Notes under the pieces: generated by a model
The model's database searches: none
What the model was told of the DNA's origin: nothing
What the model saw: only the letters and a program-made list of their open reading frames with translations
Shown: positions 1-11,785 of the stretch, one piece after another
Numbering within the stretch: position 1 is the stretch's first letter
Layout: every line of letters starts with the position of its first letter
Virus record (IMG/VR): IMGVR_UViG_2585427739_000006
DNA from: a virus
Lineage: Duplodnaviria; Heunggongvirae; Uroviricota; Caudoviricetes
Reading direction: 5' to 3' (one strand)
DNA: 11,861 nt
Translations under genes and position numbers: made by a program

Positions 1-283
1 TATGGCGACGCTGGGGCGTCTTATGAGCCTGCTGTCACCCTTTGACGTGGTGATATGGATGACGGATGGCTGGCCGCTGTATGAATCCCGCCTGAAGGGA
101 AAGCTGCACGTAATCAGCAAGCGATATACGCAGCGAATTGAGCGGCATAACCTGAATCTGAGGCAGCACCTGGCACGGCTGGGACGGAAGTCGCTGTCGT
201 TCTCAAAATCGGTGGAGCTGCATGACAAAGTCATCGGGCATTATCTGAACATAAAACACTATCAATAAGTTGGAGTCATTACC
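1..283 (+). mobile_element. IS1 insertion sequence, right-hand portion (window starts inside the element)
   Basis: ORF 2..268 encodes an InsB-type transposase C-terminus ending ...HYLNIKHYQ. Bases 261..283 (ATCAATAAGTTGGAGTCATTACC) match the IS1 terminal inverted repeat as I recall it. Recalled, not searched. Confidence 0.88.
2..268 (+). CDS. insB: IS1 transposase InsB, C-terminal 88 aa (5' end cut by window edge)
   Basis: Open frame running from the window edge to a stop at 266..268; the protein tail matches the IS1 InsB C-terminus from memory. Confidence 0.85.
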
Positions 284-2920: not shown

Positions 2921-3112
2921 TTAAAGACCTGCCGGGATTTCGATATTATCCTGGTGAATAACTTTATCGACCGGGTAACAGTTACCGGGAATTTTCTGTT
3001 CGGTTGCTGCAGTCATACACTCCTGCATTGTCCTGTGAACACTGACTGCAATATCAACTGGCTCTCCGGAAACAAGAAAAACTGTCAGAACAAGCGCAAA
3101 TGCTGAATTCAT
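2921..3112 (-). CDS. ydfD: YdfD-like small membrane/lysis protein (63 aa) with N-terminal hydrophobic segment
   Basis: ATG at 3112 with AAGGA 8 nt upstream; protein MNSAFALVLTVFLVSGEPVD... matches my recollection of Qin YdfD. Its start overlaps the dicB stop in an ATGA arrangement. The ORF-track start at 3166 lacks a ribosome-binding site. Confidence 0.6.
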   Translation of the reverse strand: MNSAFALVLTVFLVSGEPVDIAVSVHRTMQECMTAATEQKIPGNCYPVDKVIHQDNIEIPAGL

Positions 3113-3297
3113 TGTGCACATCCTTTTGGCATCAGACGTAAACGAGCCAGCATTGAAACAATGCATATTTTATTTAATAGCTCCCGTTCTTGTTTTCTCT
3201 TGTTAATGGCATCTTCAGTAAATACAGGGTTACTGATAGTGACACCAATTTCAAAACAACCTTCAGACGTATTAACGTTTGGTAATAACGTTTTCAT
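3109..3297 (-). CDS. dicB: DicB cell-division inhibitor (62 aa)
   Basis: ATG at 3297 with GAGGA 7 nt upstream; translation MKTLLPNVNTSEGCFEIGVTISNPVFTEDAINKRKQERELLNKICIVSMLARLRLMPKGCAQ matches E. coli K-12 DicB as I recall it. The longer 97-aa ORF-track version has no ribosome-binding site. Confidence 0.75.
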   Translation of the reverse strand: MKTLLPNVNTSEGCFEIGVTISNPVFTEDAINKRKQERELLNKICIVSMLARLRLMPKGCAQ

Positions 3298-3466
3298 TAT
3301 CGCGTCCTCAACAATGAATTTTGTGATGCAGTGCCTGGTGCCTCCAGGTGACGTTAACCAGTTAACAATTAACGCCGGATACAGAGAATCCACCCATAAC
3401 ACTGTTTTTGGTTTTAACTGTTCCGCGTGCGCTTAGCCGCATTCACCGCATCACAAAATTCACTTT

Positions 3467-3524
3467 AAAAACGGCGGCAGAGCAGTCACGGAGTAAAACT
3501 GATACCGCCAAACGTCACCAGAAA
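3467..3524 (-). ncRNA. dicF: DicF small RNA (ftsZ-targeting sRNA of the dicB operon), 53 nt plus 3' U-run
   Basis: Minus-strand sequence TTTCTGGTGACGTTTGGCGGTATCAGTTTTACTCCGTGACTGCTCTGCCGCCG followed by TTTTT. This agrees at 52 of 53 positions with the K-12 DicF sequence as I remember it, and it lies immediately upstream of dicB as in Qin. Confidence 0.75.
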
Positions 3525-3643
3525 ATTGATAACAGAGGGCGTTGCAGCGGGGTTGTCACTTAAGCGTATGGTCAACCTGACAACTCGGTGTCCTCAACGG
3601 GGAAGAAATACCCCCGCCATACTTACCGCCGCGCCATTTCGCG

Positions 3644-3720
3644 GGTTGCCACAACCGGAAGCGCACGGTCGAATTAAATTTAACGACACCGTACAGTGAG
3701 ACGAACTTCGCCGTGCGCTT
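3644..3720 (-). promoter_or_regulatory. Structured untranslated leader upstream of dicF: 10-bp perfect inverted repeat with nested palindromes (candidate RNA processing or regulatory structure)
   Basis: AAGCGCACGG (3659..3668) pairs with CCGTGCGCTT (3711..3720) around a 42-nt loop that itself contains GTCG/CGAC flanking the palindrome TTAAATTTAA (3674..3683). A small GGTTG/CAACC hairpin lies at 3644..3656. No convincing ORF in 3525..3799 on the minus strand. Confidence 0.3.
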
Positions 3721-3799
3721 TCGTGTTGTGTGCCTGCTTTTAACCACGTCAGGCGAGGTGGTATCCTTCTTATTCCGAATAACCAAGAAGGAAATCTAT

Positions 3800-4000
3800 A
3801 TGACTAAAGAAGAATTTGTCTCTTATATTTTTGATAAAACGGTTGAAATGTATGCCGCTACTTACGGGTCCTGTAATCCTCTGAATAAACCAGAGGGGAA
3901 AGATGATTTCGACAAAATTTACCGCTTCTTGGAGGACCGCTATATCAAAAGGTTAGAGGACGCAGGGATCAAATCCCCAGTGAAGTCACCATTGTCCTGA
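3800..4000 (+). CDS. Hypothetical protein, 66 aa, AT-rich gene antisense to the leftward operon
   Basis: ATG at 3800 preceded by AAGGA with a 7-nt spacer; first 100 bp are about 37% GC. No recognisable motif. Its 3' end overlaps the convergent 121-aa gene by 32 bp. Confidence 0.45.
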   Translation: MTKEEFVSYIFDKTVEMYAATYGSCNPLNKPEGKDDFDKIYRFLEDRYIKRLEDAGIKSPVKSPLS

Positions 4001-4334
4001 GAACTTGCAGGACGTCATGATCGTAACTTCCATCCAAACCGCGACGGCAAATTGCTTCTCGTATTACCGGAAGCAGTTCGCTGGAAATCTCGGTGCATAT
4101 TTCACCTGCTAATACGCCTGGCTCAAGTGAGAATATTGGTGAACTTACGGTCTTGGTCTCGACAGTTTCAGAGTCAGTGCCAACATTATAAAGCTCAACG
4201 AAAGCGGTCTTGATTTTCCGGGCCAGATCTTTTGCTGGCTCGCTTGCAATATCTTTCCCGATTTCTCGCAGCACAGAATGCAATGTATGAGCTGCTGTTT
4301 TCTGTACATCAGACGGTAAATCTTTAAATTCCAT
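3969..4334 (-). CDS. Hypothetical protein, 121 aa, at the position where a cI/DicA-type repressor would be expected
   Basis: ATG at 4334 with GAGG 6 nt upstream (the ORF-track start at 4346 has none). No obvious helix-turn-helix. Divergent from the rightward operon across a 212-bp intergenic region. Confidence 0.5.
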   Translation of the reverse strand: MEFKDLPSDVQKTAAHTLHSVLREIGKDIASEPAKDLARKIKTAFVELYNVGTDSETVETKTVSSPIFSLEPGVLAGEICTEISSELLPVIREAICRRGLDGSYDHDVLQVLRTMVTSLGI

Positions 4335-4546
4335 CGTCAGCCTCATCAGTCAGTGTTTCTGGCTAACCAGCAACGCGCGCCAGATTCGGTTTTAAACGTT
4401 TTGCTTTTGGTATATGTCATCGCGGTGAACGTACCGTCCTGGTTGGGGAACACGCCACATACAGGAGGCATCTGGCGGCGAGCTTCTGTATGATCCCAAG
4501 GTTTATGACGAATATCGTAAGACGAAGCGGGCGGGGCGGTTGAACA

Positions 4547-5068
4547 ATGAAAATCACTCCTGAACAGGCTCGTGAGGCTCTGGATGCCTGGATATGTCGA
4601 CCAGGAATGACACAGGAGCAGGCGACGATATTAATCACTGAAGCATTCTGGGCTTTGAAAGAGCGCCCGAACATCGATGTTCAGCGTGTCACAGATGAAG
4701 GTGGCGCGGTTGATCAGCGAGCGCTTGGCGTTAATCGAGTGAAGATATTCGAACGCTGGAAGGCTATCGACACTAGGGATAAGCGTGAAAAGTTCACGGC
4801 GCTAGTGCCTGCAATTATGGAGGCTATCCGGATTAATGATTTCAGGTTGTATCGTGAAATTAGTGACGGAAAAAGCATCACGTACATGATCGCCGGGTTA
4901 AACAAAGAATATGGCGATGTGGTGGAGTCCGGACTGCTTTTTGCTGATCCTGCCGTAGTGGATCGTGAAACTGACGAACTTATAGAAAAAGCAATTGCTT
5001 TCAAACTTGCGTATCGACAGCAATACCAACAAAAAGCTGGATGGAATTATGAGCCTTCTTTTTGCTGA
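4547..5068 (+). CDS. YdaT-like protein (173 aa), possible CII-analogous regulator; first gene of the rightward operon
   Basis: ATG at 4547 directly after an in-frame TGA. The segment ...RWKAIDTRDKREKFTALVPAIMEAIR... resembles what I recall of the Rac/CP-933P YdaT family. Assignment is from memory and tentative. Confidence 0.55.
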   Translation: MKITPEQAREALDAWICRPGMTQEQATILITEAFWALKERPNIDVQRVTDEGGAVDQRALGVNRVKIFERWKAIDTRDKREKFTALVPAIMEAIRINDFRLYREISDGKSITYMIAGLNKEYGDVVESGLLFADPAVVDRETDELIEKAIAFKLAYRQQYQQKAGWNYEPSFC

Positions 5069-6634: not shown

Positions 6635-7096
6635 ATGACCCCAATAAAAATATTTATGACTATTGCTGATTTCAAACGGCCTAAATTGGAGCTCCCAAAC
6701 GGGGCAAACAAACTACTACTGCACTCTTGCTGTGCTCCATGTTCCGGTGAAGTGATGGAGGCGCTTCAGGCCTCGGGAATCGACTATACCATCTTTTTCT
6801 ACAACCCGAACATTCATCCTCAGAAAGAGTATTTAATTCGTAAGGATGAGAATATTCGCTTTGCTGAACAACACGGCGTGCCATTTATTGATGCTGATTA
6901 CGACACAGACAACTGGTTTGAACGTGCCAAAGGAATGGAATGGGAACCCGAGAGGGGGATCCGTTGTACCATGTGTTTTGACATGCGTTTTGAGCGGACA
7001 GCGCTGTACGCTGCTGAAAATGGTTTCAGTGTGATCAGCAGTTCACTGGGCATTTCACGCTGGAAAAATATGCAGCAGGTTACCGTCACTGGATAA
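6635..7096 (+). CDS. QueH/DUF208-like protein (153 aa), possibly C-terminally truncated
   Basis: Contains [20 protein letters not shown] and [11 protein letters not shown], which match the signature motifs I associate with the DUF208/QueH family. It is shorter than typical QueH and ends at a TAA that is in frame with the next gene. No ribosome-binding site at either candidate ATG (6635, 6656). Confidence 0.5.
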
Positions 7097-9356: not shown

Positions 9357-10970
9357 TTATTTATTAGTGAGTACTACGTTCCATGGCAGGAGTTCGTCAA
9401 CTCGGTTGGAAGGCCATTCCGGCAGTACGCTCAGGATATGGCGCAGATACGCTTCCGGATCGATACCATTCAACCGGCAGGTGCCGATCAGCCCGTACAA
9501 CAGTGCACCACGCTCGCCGCCGTGATCGCTACCGAAGAACACGTAATTTTTCTTTCCGAGACAGACTGCACGAAGCGCTCTTTCCGCTGTGTTATTGTCC
9601 GCCTCCGCCAGACCGTCATCACAGAAGTTGCACAACGCAACCCAGTGCTTCCTGATATACCGGAACGCATCTCTCAGACGGCATTTTTTCGATAACGTGT
9701 GTTCTTTCTCCTGCATCAGCTTATACAGGGAAGTCAGTAGCGGTTTACTCTGCATTTGCCTGACCGCCAGGCGTTCAGACACCGGCAACCCGCGTATTTC
9801 GTGCTCAATGGCGTACAGTTCGCCGATTAGTTTCAGTGCTTCTTCCGCCGTCGCGCTTTTGGTACTGATATATACATCGTGGATTTTGCGCCGCGCATGA
9901 GCCCAGCATCCTGCTTCCGTCAACGCGCCGCCTTCACGTTCGGCACTGAACAGCCGATCGTAACCTGCGAACGCATCTGCCTGCAGGATACCCCGGAAGG
10001 GACGAAGGTGTTGCTCCGGATGTTTACCCTGATGGTCCGGTGAGTAGGCGAACCAGACCGCCGGAGGTTCTGGCGAACCGGCATTTCGGTCATCCCGGAC
10101 ATACGTCCAGATATATCCTGTTTTCGCCTTCTTCCTGCCCGGTGCCAGTACTTTTACTGGTGTGTCATCAGTGTGAACCTTGCGGGTGTTCATCACATAA
10201 CTGTACAGGGCATCATTCAGCGGCGTCATTAACTGGCAGCACGCATCAACCCAGTTGGAGAGTAAGGCACGGCTCAGTTCGACACCCTGGCGGGCAAAGA
10301 TTTCACTCTGACGATACAGTGGCAGGTGTTCGCAGTATTTTCCCGTTAACACGCGGGCAAGTAACCCCGGGCCCGCGATACCACGCTCTATCGGACGGGA
10401 TGGTGCCGGTGCTTCAACGATGCAGTCACATTTTGTACAGGCTTTTTTTACCCGTTCTGTGCGGATCACTTTCAGGGCGCTGCTCACCAGTTCCAGTTGT
10501 TCTGCGCTGACTTCCCCCAGATAATCCAGCTCACCGCCACACTCCGGGCAACAGCTTTCTTCAGGCTCCAGGCGGTATATTTCACGGGGGAGATGTGCCG
10601 GTAACGGACGACGATGGCGCGACTGTCGCAACTGGCGGGGAACCAGCGGGTCATCCTCACGCCCACTGTAACGATCGCTTTCCTGCTCGCGTTGTTTCAG
10701 CAGGGCTTCAGCCTGTTCAACCTCACGACGCAGTTTTTCAGAACGGGTTCCGAACAGCATCCGGCGCAGTTTTTCTATCTGAGCCCGCAGATGCTCTATT
10801 TCCCGTTCATCTTCTTCGATCTTTTCTTCGGCACGTGCCAGTGCAGAGCGCAGGAAGGCCTCCGTCTCTTCAACCAGACTCAGTTGCTGGTCTTTCTGAC
10901 GGAGGGCTTCAGCCTGCTCAGAGAGCAGCCTTTCCAGCTCAGCGATGCGAATGAGGTATTTCTGACTCAT
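9357..10970 (-). CDS. IS66-family transposase TnpC (537 aa)
   Basis: Long ORF with a coiled-coil/leucine-zipper-like N-terminus, a CxxC...CxxC zinc-finger region (CCPECGG...CTKCDC) and an acidic catalytic core, as in IS66 TnpC. Confidence 0.9.
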   Translation of the reverse strand: MSQKYLIRIAELERLLSEQAEALRQKDQQLSLVEETEAFLRSALARAEEKIEEDEREIEHLRAQIEKLRRMLFGTRSEKLRREVEQAEALLKQREQESDRYSGREDDPLVPRQLRQSRHRRPLPAHLPREIYRLEPEESCCPECGGELDYLGEVSAEQLELVSSALKVIRTERVKKACTKCDCIVEAPAPSRPIERGIAGPGLLARVLTGKYCEHLPLYRQSEIFARQGVELSRALLSNWVDACCQLMTPLNDALYSYVMNTRKVHTDDTPVKVLAPGRKKAKTGYIWTYVRDDRNAGSPEPPAVWFAYSPDHQGKHPEQHLRPFRGILQADAFAGYDRLFSAEREGGALTEAGCWAHARRKIHDVYISTKSATAEEALKLIGELYAIEHEIRGLPVSERLAVRQMQSKPLLTSLYKLMQEKEHTLSKKCRLRDAFRYIRKHWVALCNFCDDGLAEADNNTAERALRAVCLGKKNYVFFGSDHGGERGALLYGLIGTCRLNGIDPEAYLRHILSVLPEWPSNRVDELLPWNVVLTNK

Positions 10971-11000
10971 GGCCGTTTTTATAATGCGGTCAGGAGTTTT

Positions 11001-11351
11001 TTACAACATTGTCAGTGCGTTAAGGCGGGATGTTTTTGGCTGACGCCAGTCCAGCTTATCGAGGAGCATTGCCAGTTGCGAGCGGGTAATGGATATCTTA
11101 CCGTCACGCACCGCAGGCCAGATAAACTGACCTTCCTCAAGGCGTTTGGTGAACAGGCACAGACCATCAGCATCAGCCCACAGGATTTTAATCGTGTCTC
11201 CCCGTCGGCCACGGAAGATAAACAGGTGACCGGAGAAGGGGTTATCATCCAGCACATGCTGTATCTGCTCCCCCAGACCGTTGAAGGATTTACGCATATC
11301 AGTAACGCCGGCAACGAGCCAGATACGGGTACCTGATGGGAGTGAAATCAT
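11001..11351 (-). CDS. IS66-family accessory protein TnpB (Orf2, 116 aa)
   Basis: 116-aa ORF whose ATG (11351) overlaps the tnpA stop as ATGA. The sequence MISLPSGTRIWLVAGVTDMRKSFNGL... is typical of IS66 Orf2. Confidence 0.88.
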   Translation of the reverse strand: MISLPSGTRIWLVAGVTDMRKSFNGLGEQIQHVLDDNPFSGHLFIFRGRRGDTIKILWADADGLCLFTKRLEEGQFIWPAVRDGKISITRSQLAMLLDKLDWRQPKTSRLNALTML

Positions 11352-11785
11352 CGTCCCCTCCCGGTCAGCTCACGGATCAACACCGTGAGCAGCTCTGGTG
11401 AAGGATTTTCCAGCATCATTTTACCGTAATGGAATTCCACATGGCAGGAAGCTGCACAAGCACCTGATAATGCCTCCGGAGCAGGAGCATCTGTAGCACA
11501 GCGCGGGGTGTCGATAAGTTCCACTGGAACCAGAGTCGGAGAGGCCGGAAAAGATTGTGATACTGTAGGGCCTACAATAGTTGGAGGCATTCTACGAGAA
11601 ATACGTCCTTCTCTTTGCCAGAGGCGTAGCCATTTAAAAATCAGGTTGTTATCAACGCCATGTTCCCGGGCCAGTTGTGCAACATTGGCATTTGGTTTCG
11701 AAGCCAGTTCAACCATATGAAGTTTAAATTCATTAGAAAATATCCGGCGGGTTCCGGAGCGCCAGTCTGTAGGTTTATCCATCAA
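11348..11785 (-). CDS. IS66-family TnpA (Orf1, 145 aa), helix-turn-helix protein
   Basis: First ORF of the IS66 operon, starting 76 bp from the window edge; N-terminal helix-turn-helix-like region. Confidence 0.85.
   Translation of the reverse strand: MMDKPTDWRSGTRRIFSNEFKLHMVELASKPNANVAQLAREHGVDNNLIFKWLRLWQREGRISRRMPPTIVGPTVSQSFPASPTLVPVELIDTPRCATDAPAPEALSGACAASCHVEFHYGKMMLENPSPELLTVLIRELTGRGR

What the first reader, a model, noticed from the sequence alone, without database searches (positions are those of the whole stretch)
3800..4334. Convergent, 3'-overlapping gene pair of unknown function where the DicA repressor and ydfABC would be expected
The dicF-dicB-ydfD block identifies this as a Qin-like early-left operon, which in K-12 (as I recall it) is preceded by dicA-ydfA-ydfB-ydfC. 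Here that space instead holds a + strand 66-aa gene (strong ribosome-binding site, about 37% GC) antisense to the operon. It converges on a minus-strand 121-aa gene and overlaps it by 32 bp (3969..4000). Neither shows a helix-turn-helix, and no cro-like ORF exists in the 212-bp divergent region (4335..4546), which I translated in all three + frames. Immunity-proximal slots in lambdoid prophages often hold accessory cargo such as exclusion, defence or toxin modules, so this pair is the best candidate for an undescribed module. The obligatory antisense overlap also suggests mutual transcriptional interference.
Basis: partly seen in the sequence, partly recalled or inferred. Interest (0 to 1): 0.62.

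Follow-up and report, generated by a model that had tools for sequence, protein, structure and literature searches.

The report
Convergent prophage gene pair, function unknown
Two small overlapping genes facing each other in a Qin-like E. coli prophage are real, conserved and always travel together; they are one version of a swappable accessory cassette sitting where the related prophage Rac keeps its phage-exclusion gene sieB, and the repressor is missing only because a rare 840-bp deletion removed it.

Summary
The two ORFs are exactly as described: a 66-aa gene at 3800-4000 (+) and a 121-aa gene at 3969-4334 (-), overlapping by 32 bp. Both are under purifying selection and are annotated as hypothetical proteins in 400 of 5,426 complete E. 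coli genomes, including BL21, and in phage mEp460.

The pair does not replace DicA. A rare 840-bp deletion (junction 4460-4462, found in 14 genomes) removed dicA, both early promoter-like sites, the start of ydfA and most of dicC. A ydfA remnant (4346-4471) and a dicC remnant (4459-4563) remain. In intact relatives the pair fills the ydfB-ydfC slot, downstream of the repressor.

New findings:
- Every full-length 66-aa homologue faces the C-terminal domain of the 121-aa protein, even when that partner's N-terminal part differs or is absent.
- A conserved, unannotated leader precedes the 66-aa gene. It pairs with and hides the ribosome-binding site. The same leader precedes at least 12 unrelated small ORF families in the same antisense slot.
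- In Rac, sieB occupies the equivalent position.

Best reading, which is inferred and not shown: a factor expressed in the lysogen plus a matching partner made from the lytic operon, working like an exclusion-and-escape system. No homology or fold match gives a function.

The parts
3732..3771 (+). Conserved unannotated leader element upstream of the 66-aa gene. It contains GCCTG (3732-3736) / CAGGC (3750-3754) interleaved with ACCAC (3743-3747) / GTGGT (3758-3762). It also contains a candidate extended -10 box, TGgTATCCT (3759-3767), and the anti-SD arm TCCTTCTT (3764-3771).
   Evidence: The element is near-invariant upstream of at least 12 unrelated small ORF families. It occurs in 2,059 of 5,426 E. 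coli genomes, never under an annotated feature. There is no Rfam match. Its role as a promoter is inferred, not shown.
3764..3792 (+). Predicted hairpin that hides the ribosome-binding site: TCCTTCTT (3764-3771) pairs with AAGAAGGA (3785-3792) around a 13-nt loop.
   Evidence: The hairpin appears in the minimum-energy fold of nearly every leader variant. The extension of the stem covaries among cassettes: score 0.214 against 0.105 in shuffles, 0 of 500 shuffles as high, slid controls at most 0.089. A permutation test gave 0 of 5,000. Modelled probability that the SD is unpaired is 0.06 in long leaders and 0.49 in short ones.
3800..4000 (+). 66-aa gene (PHROG 34441; WP_000159335). It is antisense to the early-left operon and is predicted to be a soluble two-helix hairpin.
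   Evidence: See (E = 1.5e-50; pLDDT 81.5; helices 3-22 and 31-54; dN/dS 0.1-0.3). It has no Pfam, NCBIfam, PADLOC, PDB or Foldseek match.
3969..4334 (-). 121-aa gene (PHROG 33007). It has three parts: an N-terminal 'MEFKDLP' domain (codons 1-52, 4179-4334), a poorly conserved linker (codons 53-86, 4077-4178), and a cassette-specific C-terminal domain (codons 87-121, 3972-4076).
   Evidence: See (E = 4e-82). The N-terminal 50 residues are shared with proteins that have other C-termini. An exhaustive search found 95 representative clusters for the N-domain. The AlphaFold2 model shows two helical hairpins separated by a low-confidence linker. Selection differs by domain.
3969..4000 (.). 32-bp 3' overlap of the two genes, coding on both strands (PVKSPLS* on one, TMVTSLGI* on the other). 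The inverted repeat GTCCTG/CAGGAC lies at 3994-4013.
   Evidence: The overlap core AATGGYGACTTCACTGGGG is kept even in the most diverged loci, L008 and L011. The hairpin itself is not universal.
4346..4471 (-). Truncated ydfA (DUF1391): 41 aa instead of 50, with the true N-terminus deleted.
   Evidence: Pfam PF07151, E = 5e-21.
4460..4462 (.). Junction of the 840-bp deletion. The deletion removed the first 12 or so codons of ydfA, the dicBp-like promoter site, the dicA-like repressor gene, the divergent promoter region and about 41 codons of dicC/cro.
   Evidence: BLAST of the window against intact relatives L002, L009 and L010. The promoter-like sites lie in the deleted segment of L002. The junction is present in 14 of 5,426 genomes.
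4459..4563 (+). 3' remnant of the DicC/Cro gene (..QEASGGELLYDPKVYDEYRKTKRAGRLNNENHS*).
   Evidence: RefSeq marks it as a pseudogene in an identical genome.
3472..3523 (-). DicF small RNA, downstream in the same early-left operon.
   Evidence: Rfam RF00039, 72.5 bits.
2921..3297 (-). dicB (3109-3297) and ydfD (2921-3112), the distal genes of the operon.
   Evidence: RefSeq annotation of identical DNA and translations.
4547..5068 (+). YdaT / CII-like gene, the first intact gene of the early-right operon. It has lost its own promoter to the deletion.
   Evidence: Pfam YdaT_toxin and PHROG 163, CII-like.

Best explanation
The pair is an accessory two-gene cassette of Qin-like lambdoid prophages, sitting in the slot that ydfB-ydfC occupy in K-12. 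It is not a replacement for the immunity genes.

Anatomy (shown):
- The 121-aa gene belongs to the early-left operon, which is driven by dicBp or a pL-type promoter. It joins a widespread 50-aa N-terminal domain to a C-terminal domain of about 45 aa that is specific to this cassette.
- The 66-aa gene lies antisense to that operon and overlaps the 121-aa gene's 3' end.
- A conserved leader precedes the 66-aa gene. Its 5' arm pairs with the ribosome-binding site.

Mechanism (inferred):
- The 66-aa gene is an independently expressed accessory gene (a 'moron'), made in the lysogen from an extended -10 promoter, TGgTATCCT. That promoter overlaps the 5' arm, so the gene's own transcript would start after the arm and be translatable.
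- Read-through transcripts would carry the arm and be translationally silent. This is the fold-back inhibition logic of IS10.
- On induction, or on infection by a phage with the same cassette type, transcription of the early operon runs antisense through the 66-aa gene. It also produces the 121-aa protein, whose C-terminal domain is the matching partner that neutralises the 66-aa protein.
- The likeliest biological role is a prophage-encoded exclusion or interference factor paired with its own escape function. This matches the logic of sieB/esc/sas in P22 and lambda, and sieB sits in the equivalent position in Rac.

In this window the deletion has removed the early promoter-like site, so only the 66-aa gene is likely to be expressed.
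For: - Both genes are real: purifying selection is seen in each.
- All of about 70 loci with a full-length 66-aa homologue have the C-terminal domain on the opposite strand, overlapping at the 3' end.
- That pairing survives three changes of context. In L008 and L011 the partner has a different N-terminal module. In Cedecea (L006, L007) the partner is the C-terminal domain alone, and the pair sits between cro and cII, with the C-domain ORF still on the lytic-operon strand.
- Three other small-ORF families (B, C, D) show the same one-to-one pairing with a C-terminal domain. The partner's N-terminal module swaps among the MEFKDLP domain, a ClpX-type zinc finger, an 'FWxxVEA' module, or nothing.
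- In L004 and L005 the 121-aa gene is the first gene after the CI repressor, a terminator and a pL-like promoter flanked by an inverted repeat.
- The leader is conserved upstream of at least 12 unrelated antisense ORFs, and its stem over the ribosome-binding site covaries.
- In Rac, ydaF (DUF1391) converges on sieB with a 4-bp overlap, and the sieB upstream region keeps a variant of the element with compensatory changes.
- Genes antisense to lytic operons are described as typical of prophage accessory loci (PMC7067206). The same paper recounts that the P22 sas antisense RNA switches translation between the peptides encoded by sieB.
- Fourteen genomes tolerate the loss of the early promoter-like site. 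This argues that the 66-aa protein alone is not lethal to the host.
Against: - There is no expression, interaction or phenotype data of any kind.
- No homology or fold match gives a function.
- The co-occurrence of the C-terminal domain and the 66-aa gene could be pure physical linkage, because the two genes overlap and cannot be separated by recombination.
- The promoter is only a consensus match: -10 TATCCT with an upstream TG and a weak -35. The tool's scan did not flag it.
- Counts of G-U wobble pairs do not show which strand forms the hairpin: 12 on the + strand against 16 on the - strand.
- No terminator was found for either gene.
- The C-terminal domain model has low confidence (pLDDT about 55).
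- Some cassettes in this slot have no credible partner: a 52-aa protein that is the N-domain alone, paired with a 65-aa ORF, and a 106-aa membrane protein. A partner is therefore not obligatory in the slot.
Confidence: 0.4

Rival explanations
1. The polarity is reversed, giving an effector-immunity pair like the pore-forming colicins (from my own knowledge of colicin operons). The C-terminal domain of the protein made from the early operon would be the effector, for example an inhibitor of a host protein used in takeover. The 66-aa protein, made constitutively from the antisense strand, would be its immunity protein. It would protect the lysogen from leaky expression and from the same effector delivered by a superinfecting phage of the same type.
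For: - The architecture fits: a shared N-terminal module, a variable C-terminal domain and a matching small gene beside it. This is the signature of polymorphic toxin-immunity loci.
- The small gene is convergent and would be independently expressed, opposite an inducible operon.
- The neighbouring early-left genes dicB and dicF are host-toxic (PMC5069750).
- Cassettes where the small ORF has no partner domain resemble orphan immunity genes.
Against: - The C-terminal domain is only about 45 aa, two predicted helices, and resembles no known toxin.
- An immunity protein would not be expected to have its ribosome-binding site hidden.
- The 66-aa gene is interrupted by IS1 in some prophages whose partner gene is still intact. 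That would be risky if it were a needed antidote, although repression by DicA could mask the effect.
Confidence: 0.2
2. The two genes are unrelated accessory genes that merely share a compact mosaic cassette. The overlap saves space, and they always occur together only because overlapping genes cannot be separated by recombination between the two conserved flanks (the N-domain coding sequence and the leader element).
For: - The cassette lies exactly between two conserved flanks that could act as sites for recombination.
- The slot also holds stand-alone genes.
- There is no direct evidence that the proteins interact.
Against: - Four independent families keep the same pairing of C-terminal domain and small ORF while the other flank changes or the unit moves to another operon.
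- Unrelated cassettes all have a 3' overlap, ranging from 0 to about 135 nt, and never a spacer holding a terminator.
- In all cases the C-domain ORF stays on the lytic-operon strand.
Confidence: 0.25
3. The function is at the RNA level. The antisense transcription unit mainly acts as a brake on the early-left operon, by transcriptional interference or RNase III cleavage of paired 3' ends. This would limit leaky expression of the toxic downstream dicF and dicB. The 66-aa product would be secondary.
For: - The gene lies between the operon promoter and dicF/dicB and converges on the operon.
- No terminator separates the two genes.
- Lambda OOP and P22 sas are precedents for antisense control in this part of lambdoid genomes (PMC7067206).
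Against: - The 66-aa ORF is under clear purifying selection at the protein level, with dN/dS of 0.1-0.3 where dS is saturated. The protein therefore matters.
- K-12 Qin manages without any such unit.
Confidence: 0.1
4. The 121-aa protein is an unconventional repressor that has taken over the role of DicA. This idea is implicit in the reader's framing, and the reader named a repressor identity as a refutation test.
For: The gene lies next to the divergent region in this window.
Against: - It has no helix-turn-helix or other DNA-binding match.
- In about 390 other genomes the same gene coexists with an intact DicA-like or CI-like repressor beside it.
- The repressor's absence here is a deletion.
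Confidence: 0.02

Closest known systems
sieB / esc / sas superinfection-exclusion system of P22, lambda and Rac
   Same: - sieB is a gene antisense to the early-left operon, close to the immunity region.
- In Rac it converges on the DUF1391 gene ydaF and overlaps it.
- The Rac upstream region carries a variant of the same conserved element.
- Self-escape uses an antisense RNA and a second polypeptide (P22 sas/Esc, as recounted in PMC7067206).
   Different: - There is no sequence similarity: Pfam gave no SieB hit.
- SieB is 162 aa in Rac. I did not run a transmembrane prediction on it. The 66-aa protein is predicted to be a soluble helical hairpin.
- In sieB the escape function is an in-frame product of the same gene. 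Here the proposed escape partner is a domain of a separate, convergent gene.
- Exclusion has not been tested for this pair.
K-12 Qin dicBF operon (dicA-ydfA-ydfB-ydfC-dicF-dicB-ydfD)
   Same: The backbone is the same. It is 98% identical from the exonuclease gene through dicB and dicF to 3741, with ydfA at 86%. The BL21 copy sits at the same chromosomal site, next to rspB.
   Different: ydfB and ydfC run in the same direction as the operon and are unrelated in sequence to the pair. K-12 has only a degenerate copy of the leader element and no antisense gene.
Fold-back inhibition of IS10/IS50 transposase translation (from my own knowledge)
   Same: An inverted repeat pairs with the ribosome-binding site, and the element's own promoter overlaps the 5' arm. 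Only transcripts that read in from outside are therefore silenced. Modelled SD accessibility is 0.06 in long leaders and 0.49 in short ones.
   Different: The transcription start has not been mapped here. The resemblance is one of design only.
Polymorphic toxin-immunity loci and pore-forming colicin operons with a convergent immunity gene (from my own knowledge)
   Same: Both have a shared N-terminal module, a variable C-terminal domain and a matching small neighbouring gene. Both set an inducible gene against a convergent, independently expressed small gene.
   Different: No toxin or immunity domain is recognisable, the N-terminal modules themselves swap or are absent, and toxicity has not been tested.
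Type I toxin-antitoxin loci with 3'-overlapping convergent transcripts (such as txpA/RatA and bsrG/SR4; from my own knowledge)
   Same: Both have convergent 3' overlap, a hidden ribosome-binding site in the leader, and a prophage location.
   Different: Both partners here encode conserved soluble proteins. Neither is a small hydrophobic toxin.

Membership tests
DicA / CI-type phage repressor | Helix-turn-helix DNA-binding domain (HTH_3, HTH_19 or Phage_CI_repr) | tested here: not met
   Neither protein has a Pfam or NCBIfam match. The models show simple helical hairpins.
DicA / CI-type phage repressor | It is the only repressor at the divergent promoter region of the prophage | tested here: not met
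   Intact relatives carry a DicA-like (135 aa) or S24 CI repressor beside the same pair. Its absence here is an 840-bp deletion.
SieB superinfection exclusion protein | Sequence homology to SieB | tested here: not met
   Pfam and PHROG searches gave only families of unknown function. The 66-aa protein shows no evident similarity to the Rac SieB sequence on inspection; no alignment was run.
SieB superinfection exclusion protein | The gene is antisense within the early-left operon near the immunity region and converges on the DUF1391 gene region | tested here: met
   Rac: ydaF (-) and sieB (+) overlap by 4 bp. Window: ydfA, then the 121-aa gene (-), converging on the 66-aa gene (+).
SieB superinfection exclusion protein | It aborts the lytic growth of superinfecting phages, and the resident phage escapes through esc and sas | not testable with these tools
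   This needs plaque and burst assays.
Moron (independently expressed prophage accessory gene) | Own promoter | tested here: inconclusive
   A conserved TGnTATCCT (3759-3767) fits an extended -10 box. The consensus scan did not flag it, and no transcription start data exist.
Moron (independently expressed prophage accessory gene) | Own terminator | tested here: not met
   No intrinsic terminator was found in 3300-4700. The gene ends inside its partner.
Moron (independently expressed prophage accessory gene) | Present or absent, or exchanged, between otherwise similar phages, and oriented against the flanking operon | tested here: met
   K-12 has ydfB-ydfC in its place. At least 12 unrelated ORF families sit behind the same leader.
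Type II toxin-antitoxin system | Co-directional two-gene operon with a recognisable toxin fold and an antitoxin carrying a DNA-binding domain | tested here: not met
   The genes are convergent. Neither has a Pfam or PADLOC match.
Type I toxin-antitoxin system | A small hydrophobic toxin and a non-coding antisense RNA antitoxin | tested here: not met
   Both partners are soluble proteins under purifying selection. The 3' overlap and the hidden ribosome-binding site resemble type I design only.
PHROG 34441 (66 aa) and PHROG 33007 (121 aa), both of unknown function | Full-length profile match | tested here: met
   E = 1.5e-50 over 1-66 of 66 positions, and E = 4.1e-82 over 1-121 of 121 positions.
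Polymorphic effector-immunity pair | A variable C-terminal domain that co-varies one-to-one with an adjacent small gene | tested here: met
   Families A to D. Caveat: the two genes overlap, so linkage alone could produce this pattern.
Polymorphic effector-immunity pair | Toxic activity of one partner, neutralised by binding of the other | not testable with these tools
   This needs expression and interaction assays or a complex structure prediction.

The most novel reading that the evidence does not exclude
The pair is one allele of an unrecognised class of hypervariable two-gene cassettes in lambdoid prophages of Enterobacterales. In each cassette a small protein is encoded antisense to the early operon, behind a shared leader that silences read-through transcripts. 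Each small protein is matched to a cassette-specific C-terminal domain carried by an early lytic protein. That protein's N-terminal module is interchangeable: the MEFKDLP domain, a ClpX-type zinc finger, an 'FWxxVEA' module, or none. Together the two parts would act as a type-specific exclusion-and-escape system, a form of self versus non-self discrimination among competing temperate phages.
Probability: 0.25. Interest if true: 0.8.

Novelty: new variant of a known kind. Interest (0 to 1): 0.55.

Why it matters
Temperate-phage genomes concentrate defence and exclusion genes at a few hotspots. The slot beside the immunity region, which holds rexAB and sieB in lambda, is a classic example.

This analysis suggests that in Qin- and Rac-like prophages the sieB-equivalent position is a cassette site. 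The site is marked by a conserved, unannotated leader found in about 38% of complete E. coli genomes. At least a dozen unrelated small genes use it, and several of them are paired with a matching domain on the opposite strand.

If the pairs are exclusion-and-escape or effector-immunity modules, they would be a sizeable, unexplored reservoir of small proteins that mediate phage-phage conflict.

The system is easy to test. BL21 and the culturable phage mEp460 both carry exactly this pair.

The work also corrects a trap: an immunity region that looks replaced is in fact a rare deletion. That deletion removed the repressor together with the promoter-like sites next to it, which would explain how loss of DicA is tolerated despite the toxic dicB and dicF genes.

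Tried and rejected
- Pfam, NCBIfam and PADLOC scans of both proteins gave nothing above threshold. PHROGs gave only families of unknown function.
- PDB sequence profile searches gave nothing: best E-values were 0.33 and 0.12.
- AlphaFold2 models followed by Foldseek of the 66-aa model against PDB and BFVD gave no match with E <= 0.001. This is expected for a two-helix hairpin. The 121-aa model was too low in confidence (pLDDT 57) to search.
- A profile search for more 66-aa relatives found no new members. The family is small and limited to Enterobacterales-type prophages.
- Rfam found nothing in 3540-4060.
- RNAalifold on a MAFFT alignment of the leaders missed the stem over the ribosome-binding site, because the variable loops misaligned. 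I replaced it with an anchored-arm alignment.
- I tried to assign the hairpin to one strand from G-U versus A-C counts. The result was inconclusive.
- A broad N-domain alignment was too diverged to seed a locus search.
- I tried to see the partner of the diverged protein P0053. The viral and metagenome scans found nothing. The one contig that carries it ends 58 nt past the gene, showing only an open convergent frame.
- Literature searches for the accessions and peptide strings found no paper.
- Ideas rejected: the ORFs are spurious; the 121-aa protein is a repressor; YdfB, YdfC or YdaG are homologues of either protein (no evident similarity on inspection of the sequences, and no DNA similarity to K-12 across the slot).
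Full report
**1. What is in the window**

The window is a decayed Qin-like lambdoid prophage of E. coli. On the minus strand lie:
- an exonuclease gene (356-2827)
- ydfD (2921-3112) and dicB (3109-3297)
- the DicF RNA (3472-3523; Rfam 72.5 bits against a threshold of 48)
- the 121-aa ORF (3969-4334)
- a 41-aa DUF1391 ORF (4346-4471).

On the plus strand lie:
- the 66-aa ORF (3800-4000)
- a YdaT/CII-like gene (4547-5068)
- an O-like replication gene, a DUF977 gene, a QueH fragment, a DUF968 gene and a Q antiterminator gene.

An IS1 remnant and an IS66 element flank the prophage.

GC content of the 66-aa gene is 40.8%.

**2. Why the repressor and cro are missing**

Near-identical DNA occurs in many complete E. 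coli genomes. In most of them the match to 3400-4700 comes in two pieces separated by about 840 bp, and that extra DNA carries a helix-turn-helix protein and a Cro/CI regulator.

Aligning the window with three intact relatives places the break at 4460-4462, with 3 bp shared by both flanks. The relatives were strain IBS28, BL21 and phage mEp460_ev081.

The missing segment held:
- the first 12 or so codons of ydfA
- a promoter-like site, TTGACG-17-TAAATT, on the operon strand, which corresponds to dicBp
- the 135-aa DicA-like repressor gene
- a plus-strand promoter-like site, TTGACT-18-TAGCAT
- about 41 codons of the DicC/Cro gene.

What remains is a truncated ydfA and the last 33 or so codons of dicC (4459-4563). 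RefSeq marks the latter as a pseudogene in an identical genome.

Only 14 of 5,426 complete genomes have this junction, whereas 400 carry the pair.

Against K-12 Qin, homology runs up to 3741 and resumes at 4355 within ydfA. The pair plus 58 bp of leader occupies the ydfB-ydfC slot.

One inference follows. Losing DicA alone should release the toxic dicB and dicF genes (their toxicity: PMC5069750). This deletion is tolerable because it removed the promoter-like sites as well.

**3. Both ORFs are genes**

Homologues exist down to 54% identity for the 66-aa protein and 74% for the full-length 121-aa protein, in Enterobacter, Salmonella, Cedecea and metagenomic contigs.

Nei-Gojobori estimates on nine diverged loci give these results:
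- 66-aa gene: dN/dS about 0.1-0.3, with dS saturated against the most distant copies
- 121-aa gene overall: about 0.15-0.6
- N-terminal domain: about 0.1-0.35
- middle linker: about 0.6.

Both proteins match PHROG families of unknown function over their full length. Nothing matches in Pfam, NCBIfam, PADLOC or among PDB sequences.

AlphaFold2 predicts the 66-aa protein as a two-helix hairpin (pLDDT 81.5). It predicts the 121-aa protein as two helical hairpins joined by a low-confidence linker spanning residues 53-86 (pLDDT 57 overall). Foldseek against PDB and BFVD found nothing significant.

**4. The pair is a unit, and its core is the 66-aa gene plus the partner's C-terminal domain**

All of about 70 fetched loci with a full-length 66-aa homologue carry the C-terminal domain of the 121-aa protein on the opposite strand, with the same 3' overlap. 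The pairing holds in three different contexts:
- In Enterobacter-type phages (L004, L005) the 121/137-aa gene comes directly after an S24 CI repressor, a terminator and a pL-like promoter flanked by an inverted repeat. It is the first early-left gene there.
- In L008 and L011 the partner is a 129-aa protein with an unrelated N-terminal part. Only its last 40 or so residues resemble the 121-aa protein.
- In Cedecea (L006, L007) the 66-aa gene lies between cro and cII, antisense to them. It faces an uncalled ORF that amounts to the C-terminal domain alone.

In every case the C-domain ORF is on the lytic-operon strand and the 66-aa gene is antisense to it.

**5. The N-terminal domain is a separate, widespread module**

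An exhaustive HMMER search found 95 representative clusters that share residues 1-52 (consensus MEFKDLPxxVQxIAAxTL...EPAKxLAxxIxxAFxELY). These proteins are 40-204 aa long and have unrelated tails.

Members with other tails also face convergent, 3'-overlapping small ORFs of unrelated families. The overlaps range from 0 to 125 nt.

**6. A conserved leader marks the slot**

A near-invariant element lies upstream of the 66-aa start codon (window 3732-3771). A pattern search for it in viral contigs recovered at least 12 unrelated downstream ORF families of 65-148 aa, including a 106-aa hydrophobic, probably membrane protein.

The window-type variant alone occurs in 2,059 of 5,426 complete E. coli genomes, always outside annotated features. 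It has no Rfam match.

Its 3' part, TCCTTCTT (3764-3771), is complementary to the ribosome-binding site AAGAAGGA (3785-3792). The evidence for this stem is:
- It appears in the minimum-energy fold of almost every variant.
- Beyond five invariant pairs, the next positions covary among cassettes. At one position the pairs are CG 9, GC 3, UA 3 and AU 2. The covariation score is 0.214 against 0.105 in shuffles (0 of 500 as high), and slid controls reach at most 0.089.
- A permutation test gave 0 of 5,000.

The sequences are related to one another, so these counts overstate independence. Wobble-pair counts do not identify the strand.

The invariant TGgTATCCT (3759-3767) fits an extended -10 promoter that overlaps the 5' arm. 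If it is used, the gene's own transcript would start just after the arm and leave the ribosome-binding site free. In models the site is unpaired with probability 0.49 in short leaders and 0.06 in long leaders that include the arm. This is the fold-back inhibition design known from IS10, which I cite from my own knowledge. It is an inference, because no transcription start has been mapped.

**7. Mix and match**

BLASTP among representatives shows four small-ORF families (A to D; A is the 66-aa family). Each is tied to one partner C-terminal domain. The partner's N-terminal module varies:
- the MEFKDLP domain
- a ClpX-type zinc finger (PF06689, 35.6 and 37.1 bits against a threshold of 27)
- an 'FWxxVEA..CSIK' module
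- no module at all.

This is what one would expect if the C-terminal domain and the small protein are matched partners. It is not proof. The two genes overlap, so linkage alone keeps them together.

**8. Closest known system**

In Rac the DUF1391 gene ydaF converges on sieB and overlaps it by 4 bp. The sieB upstream region carries a variant of the leader in which GCCTG/CAGGC has become CCCGG/CCGGG. The 66-aa gene is thus a positional analogue of sieB, though unrelated to it in sequence.

A transcriptomic study of Salmonella prophages describes genes antisense to lytic operons as typical of accessory loci. It also recounts that the P22 sas antisense RNA switches translation between the peptides encoded by sieB (PMC7067206).

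**9. Most likely mechanism, and how sure I am**

Shown:
- The anatomy, conservation, selection, constant pairing, leader structure and the deletion.

Inferred:
- The 66-aa protein is made in the lysogen from its own promoter.
- Early-operon transcription opposes it by running antisense through it, and also supplies the matching C-terminal domain that neutralises it.
- The biological role is interference with other phages, combined with escape for the resident phage.

I give this reading 0.4. The rivals are:
- a reversed, colicin-like polarity (0.2)
- two independent genes linked only by their overlap (0.25)
- a mainly RNA-level brake on dicF and dicB (0.1)
- a substitute repressor (0.02).

In this particular window the 121-aa gene has probably lost its promoter, so at most the 66-aa gene would be expressed. 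Fourteen genomes tolerate this state, which argues that the 66-aa protein alone is not lethal.

**10. Novelty and score**

The two ORFs are already annotated as hypothetical proteins and sit in PHROGs, so they are not new as sequences. No paper in the searchable library mentions them.

What appears undescribed is:
- the constant pairing with the C-terminal domain
- the shared leader that hides the ribosome-binding site
- the recurrence of this design with unrelated cargo at the sieB-equivalent slot.

I class the finding as a new variant of a known kind, namely an accessory or exclusion cassette antisense to the early operon. I score interest at 0.55. The pattern is suggestive and easy to test in BL21 and mEp460, but the function is entirely inferred.

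Noticed in passing
window 4460-4462 (junction); remnants at 4346-4471 and 4459-4563: An 840-bp deletion with 3 bp of microhomology removed the dicA-like repressor, both divergent early promoter-like sites, the start of ydfA and most of dicC. The junction occurs in only 14 of 5,426 complete E. coli genomes. Removing repressor and promoters together would explain how loss of DicA is tolerated despite dicB and dicF.
   Followed up: yes
window 3732-3771; also IMG/VR loci L158-L284: A conserved, unannotated element of about 40 nt lies in front of at least 12 unrelated antisense small ORFs in lambdoid prophages. It occurs in 2,059 of 5,426 E. coli genomes and has no Rfam family. It contains two interleaved inverted repeats (GCCTG/CAGGC and ACCAC/GTGGT) whose role is unexplained. 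They could form a pseudoknot, form alternative hairpins, or be a protein-binding site.
   Followed up: partly
L203 and L249 (IMG/VR contigs), partner genes of small-ORF families C and E: Some early-operon partner proteins carry an N-terminal ClpX-type C4 zinc finger (PF06689, above the Pfam threshold) in place of the MEFKDLP domain. This hints at a link to ClpX-style recognition. Its meaning is unknown.
   Followed up: partly
L245, L247 and about 30 other IMG/VR loci, in the same slot behind the same leader: A 106-aa protein that starts MSQPPINPLKNMKIDYWYKALTVVGAALFVF... has long hydrophobic stretches and is probably a membrane protein. It occupies the antisense slot without a credible partner ORF, and looks like a candidate superinfection-exclusion membrane protein.
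   Followed up: no
L071, L072, L073 (IMG/VR contigs): IS1 is inserted in the 66-aa gene at about codon 16, in both orientations. Several truncated 41-51-aa versions of the protein also exist in E. coli assemblies. This could mean the site is an IS1 hotspot, or that there is selection against the gene.
   Followed up: partly
window 3556-3786 (-): A 76-aa ORF matches PHROG 8854 (E = 2.7e-26). It lies in the long untranslated spacer upstream of dicF that is 98% identical to K-12, and RefSeq does not annotate it. It is probably a spurious ORF family built on a conserved non-coding region.
   Followed up: partly
window 1-283 and 9357-11785: An IS1 remnant (InsB fragment at 2-268) replaces the integrase and excisionase genes that lie to the left of the exonuclease gene in intact relatives. 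A complete IS66-family element (tnpA, tnpB and tnpC) sits beyond the lipocalin gene. The prophage is thus truncated at both ends.
   Followed up: partly
window 6635-7096: A QueH (epoxyqueuosine reductase) fragment lies inside the prophage between the DUF977 and DUF968 genes. RefSeq marks it as partial in relatives.
   Followed up: no
L015 (K-12 Rac) about 3060-3110, upstream of sieB: The Rac sieB upstream region carries a diverged copy of the leader element. Its first inverted repeat has changed on both sides (CCCGG/CCGGG instead of GCCTG/CAGGC), which is the only covariation seen for that stem.
   Followed up: partly
L004, L005, L012 leaders; window 4335-4346: In Enterobacter and Serratia phages the N-domain gene has an in-frame upstream start that adds MKTGMIRAITLDDGEV. 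The DNA for this extension is conserved across genera. It could be a real N-terminal extension or a conserved leader RNA. In the window the equivalent upstream ATG would add only MRLT.
   Followed up: no
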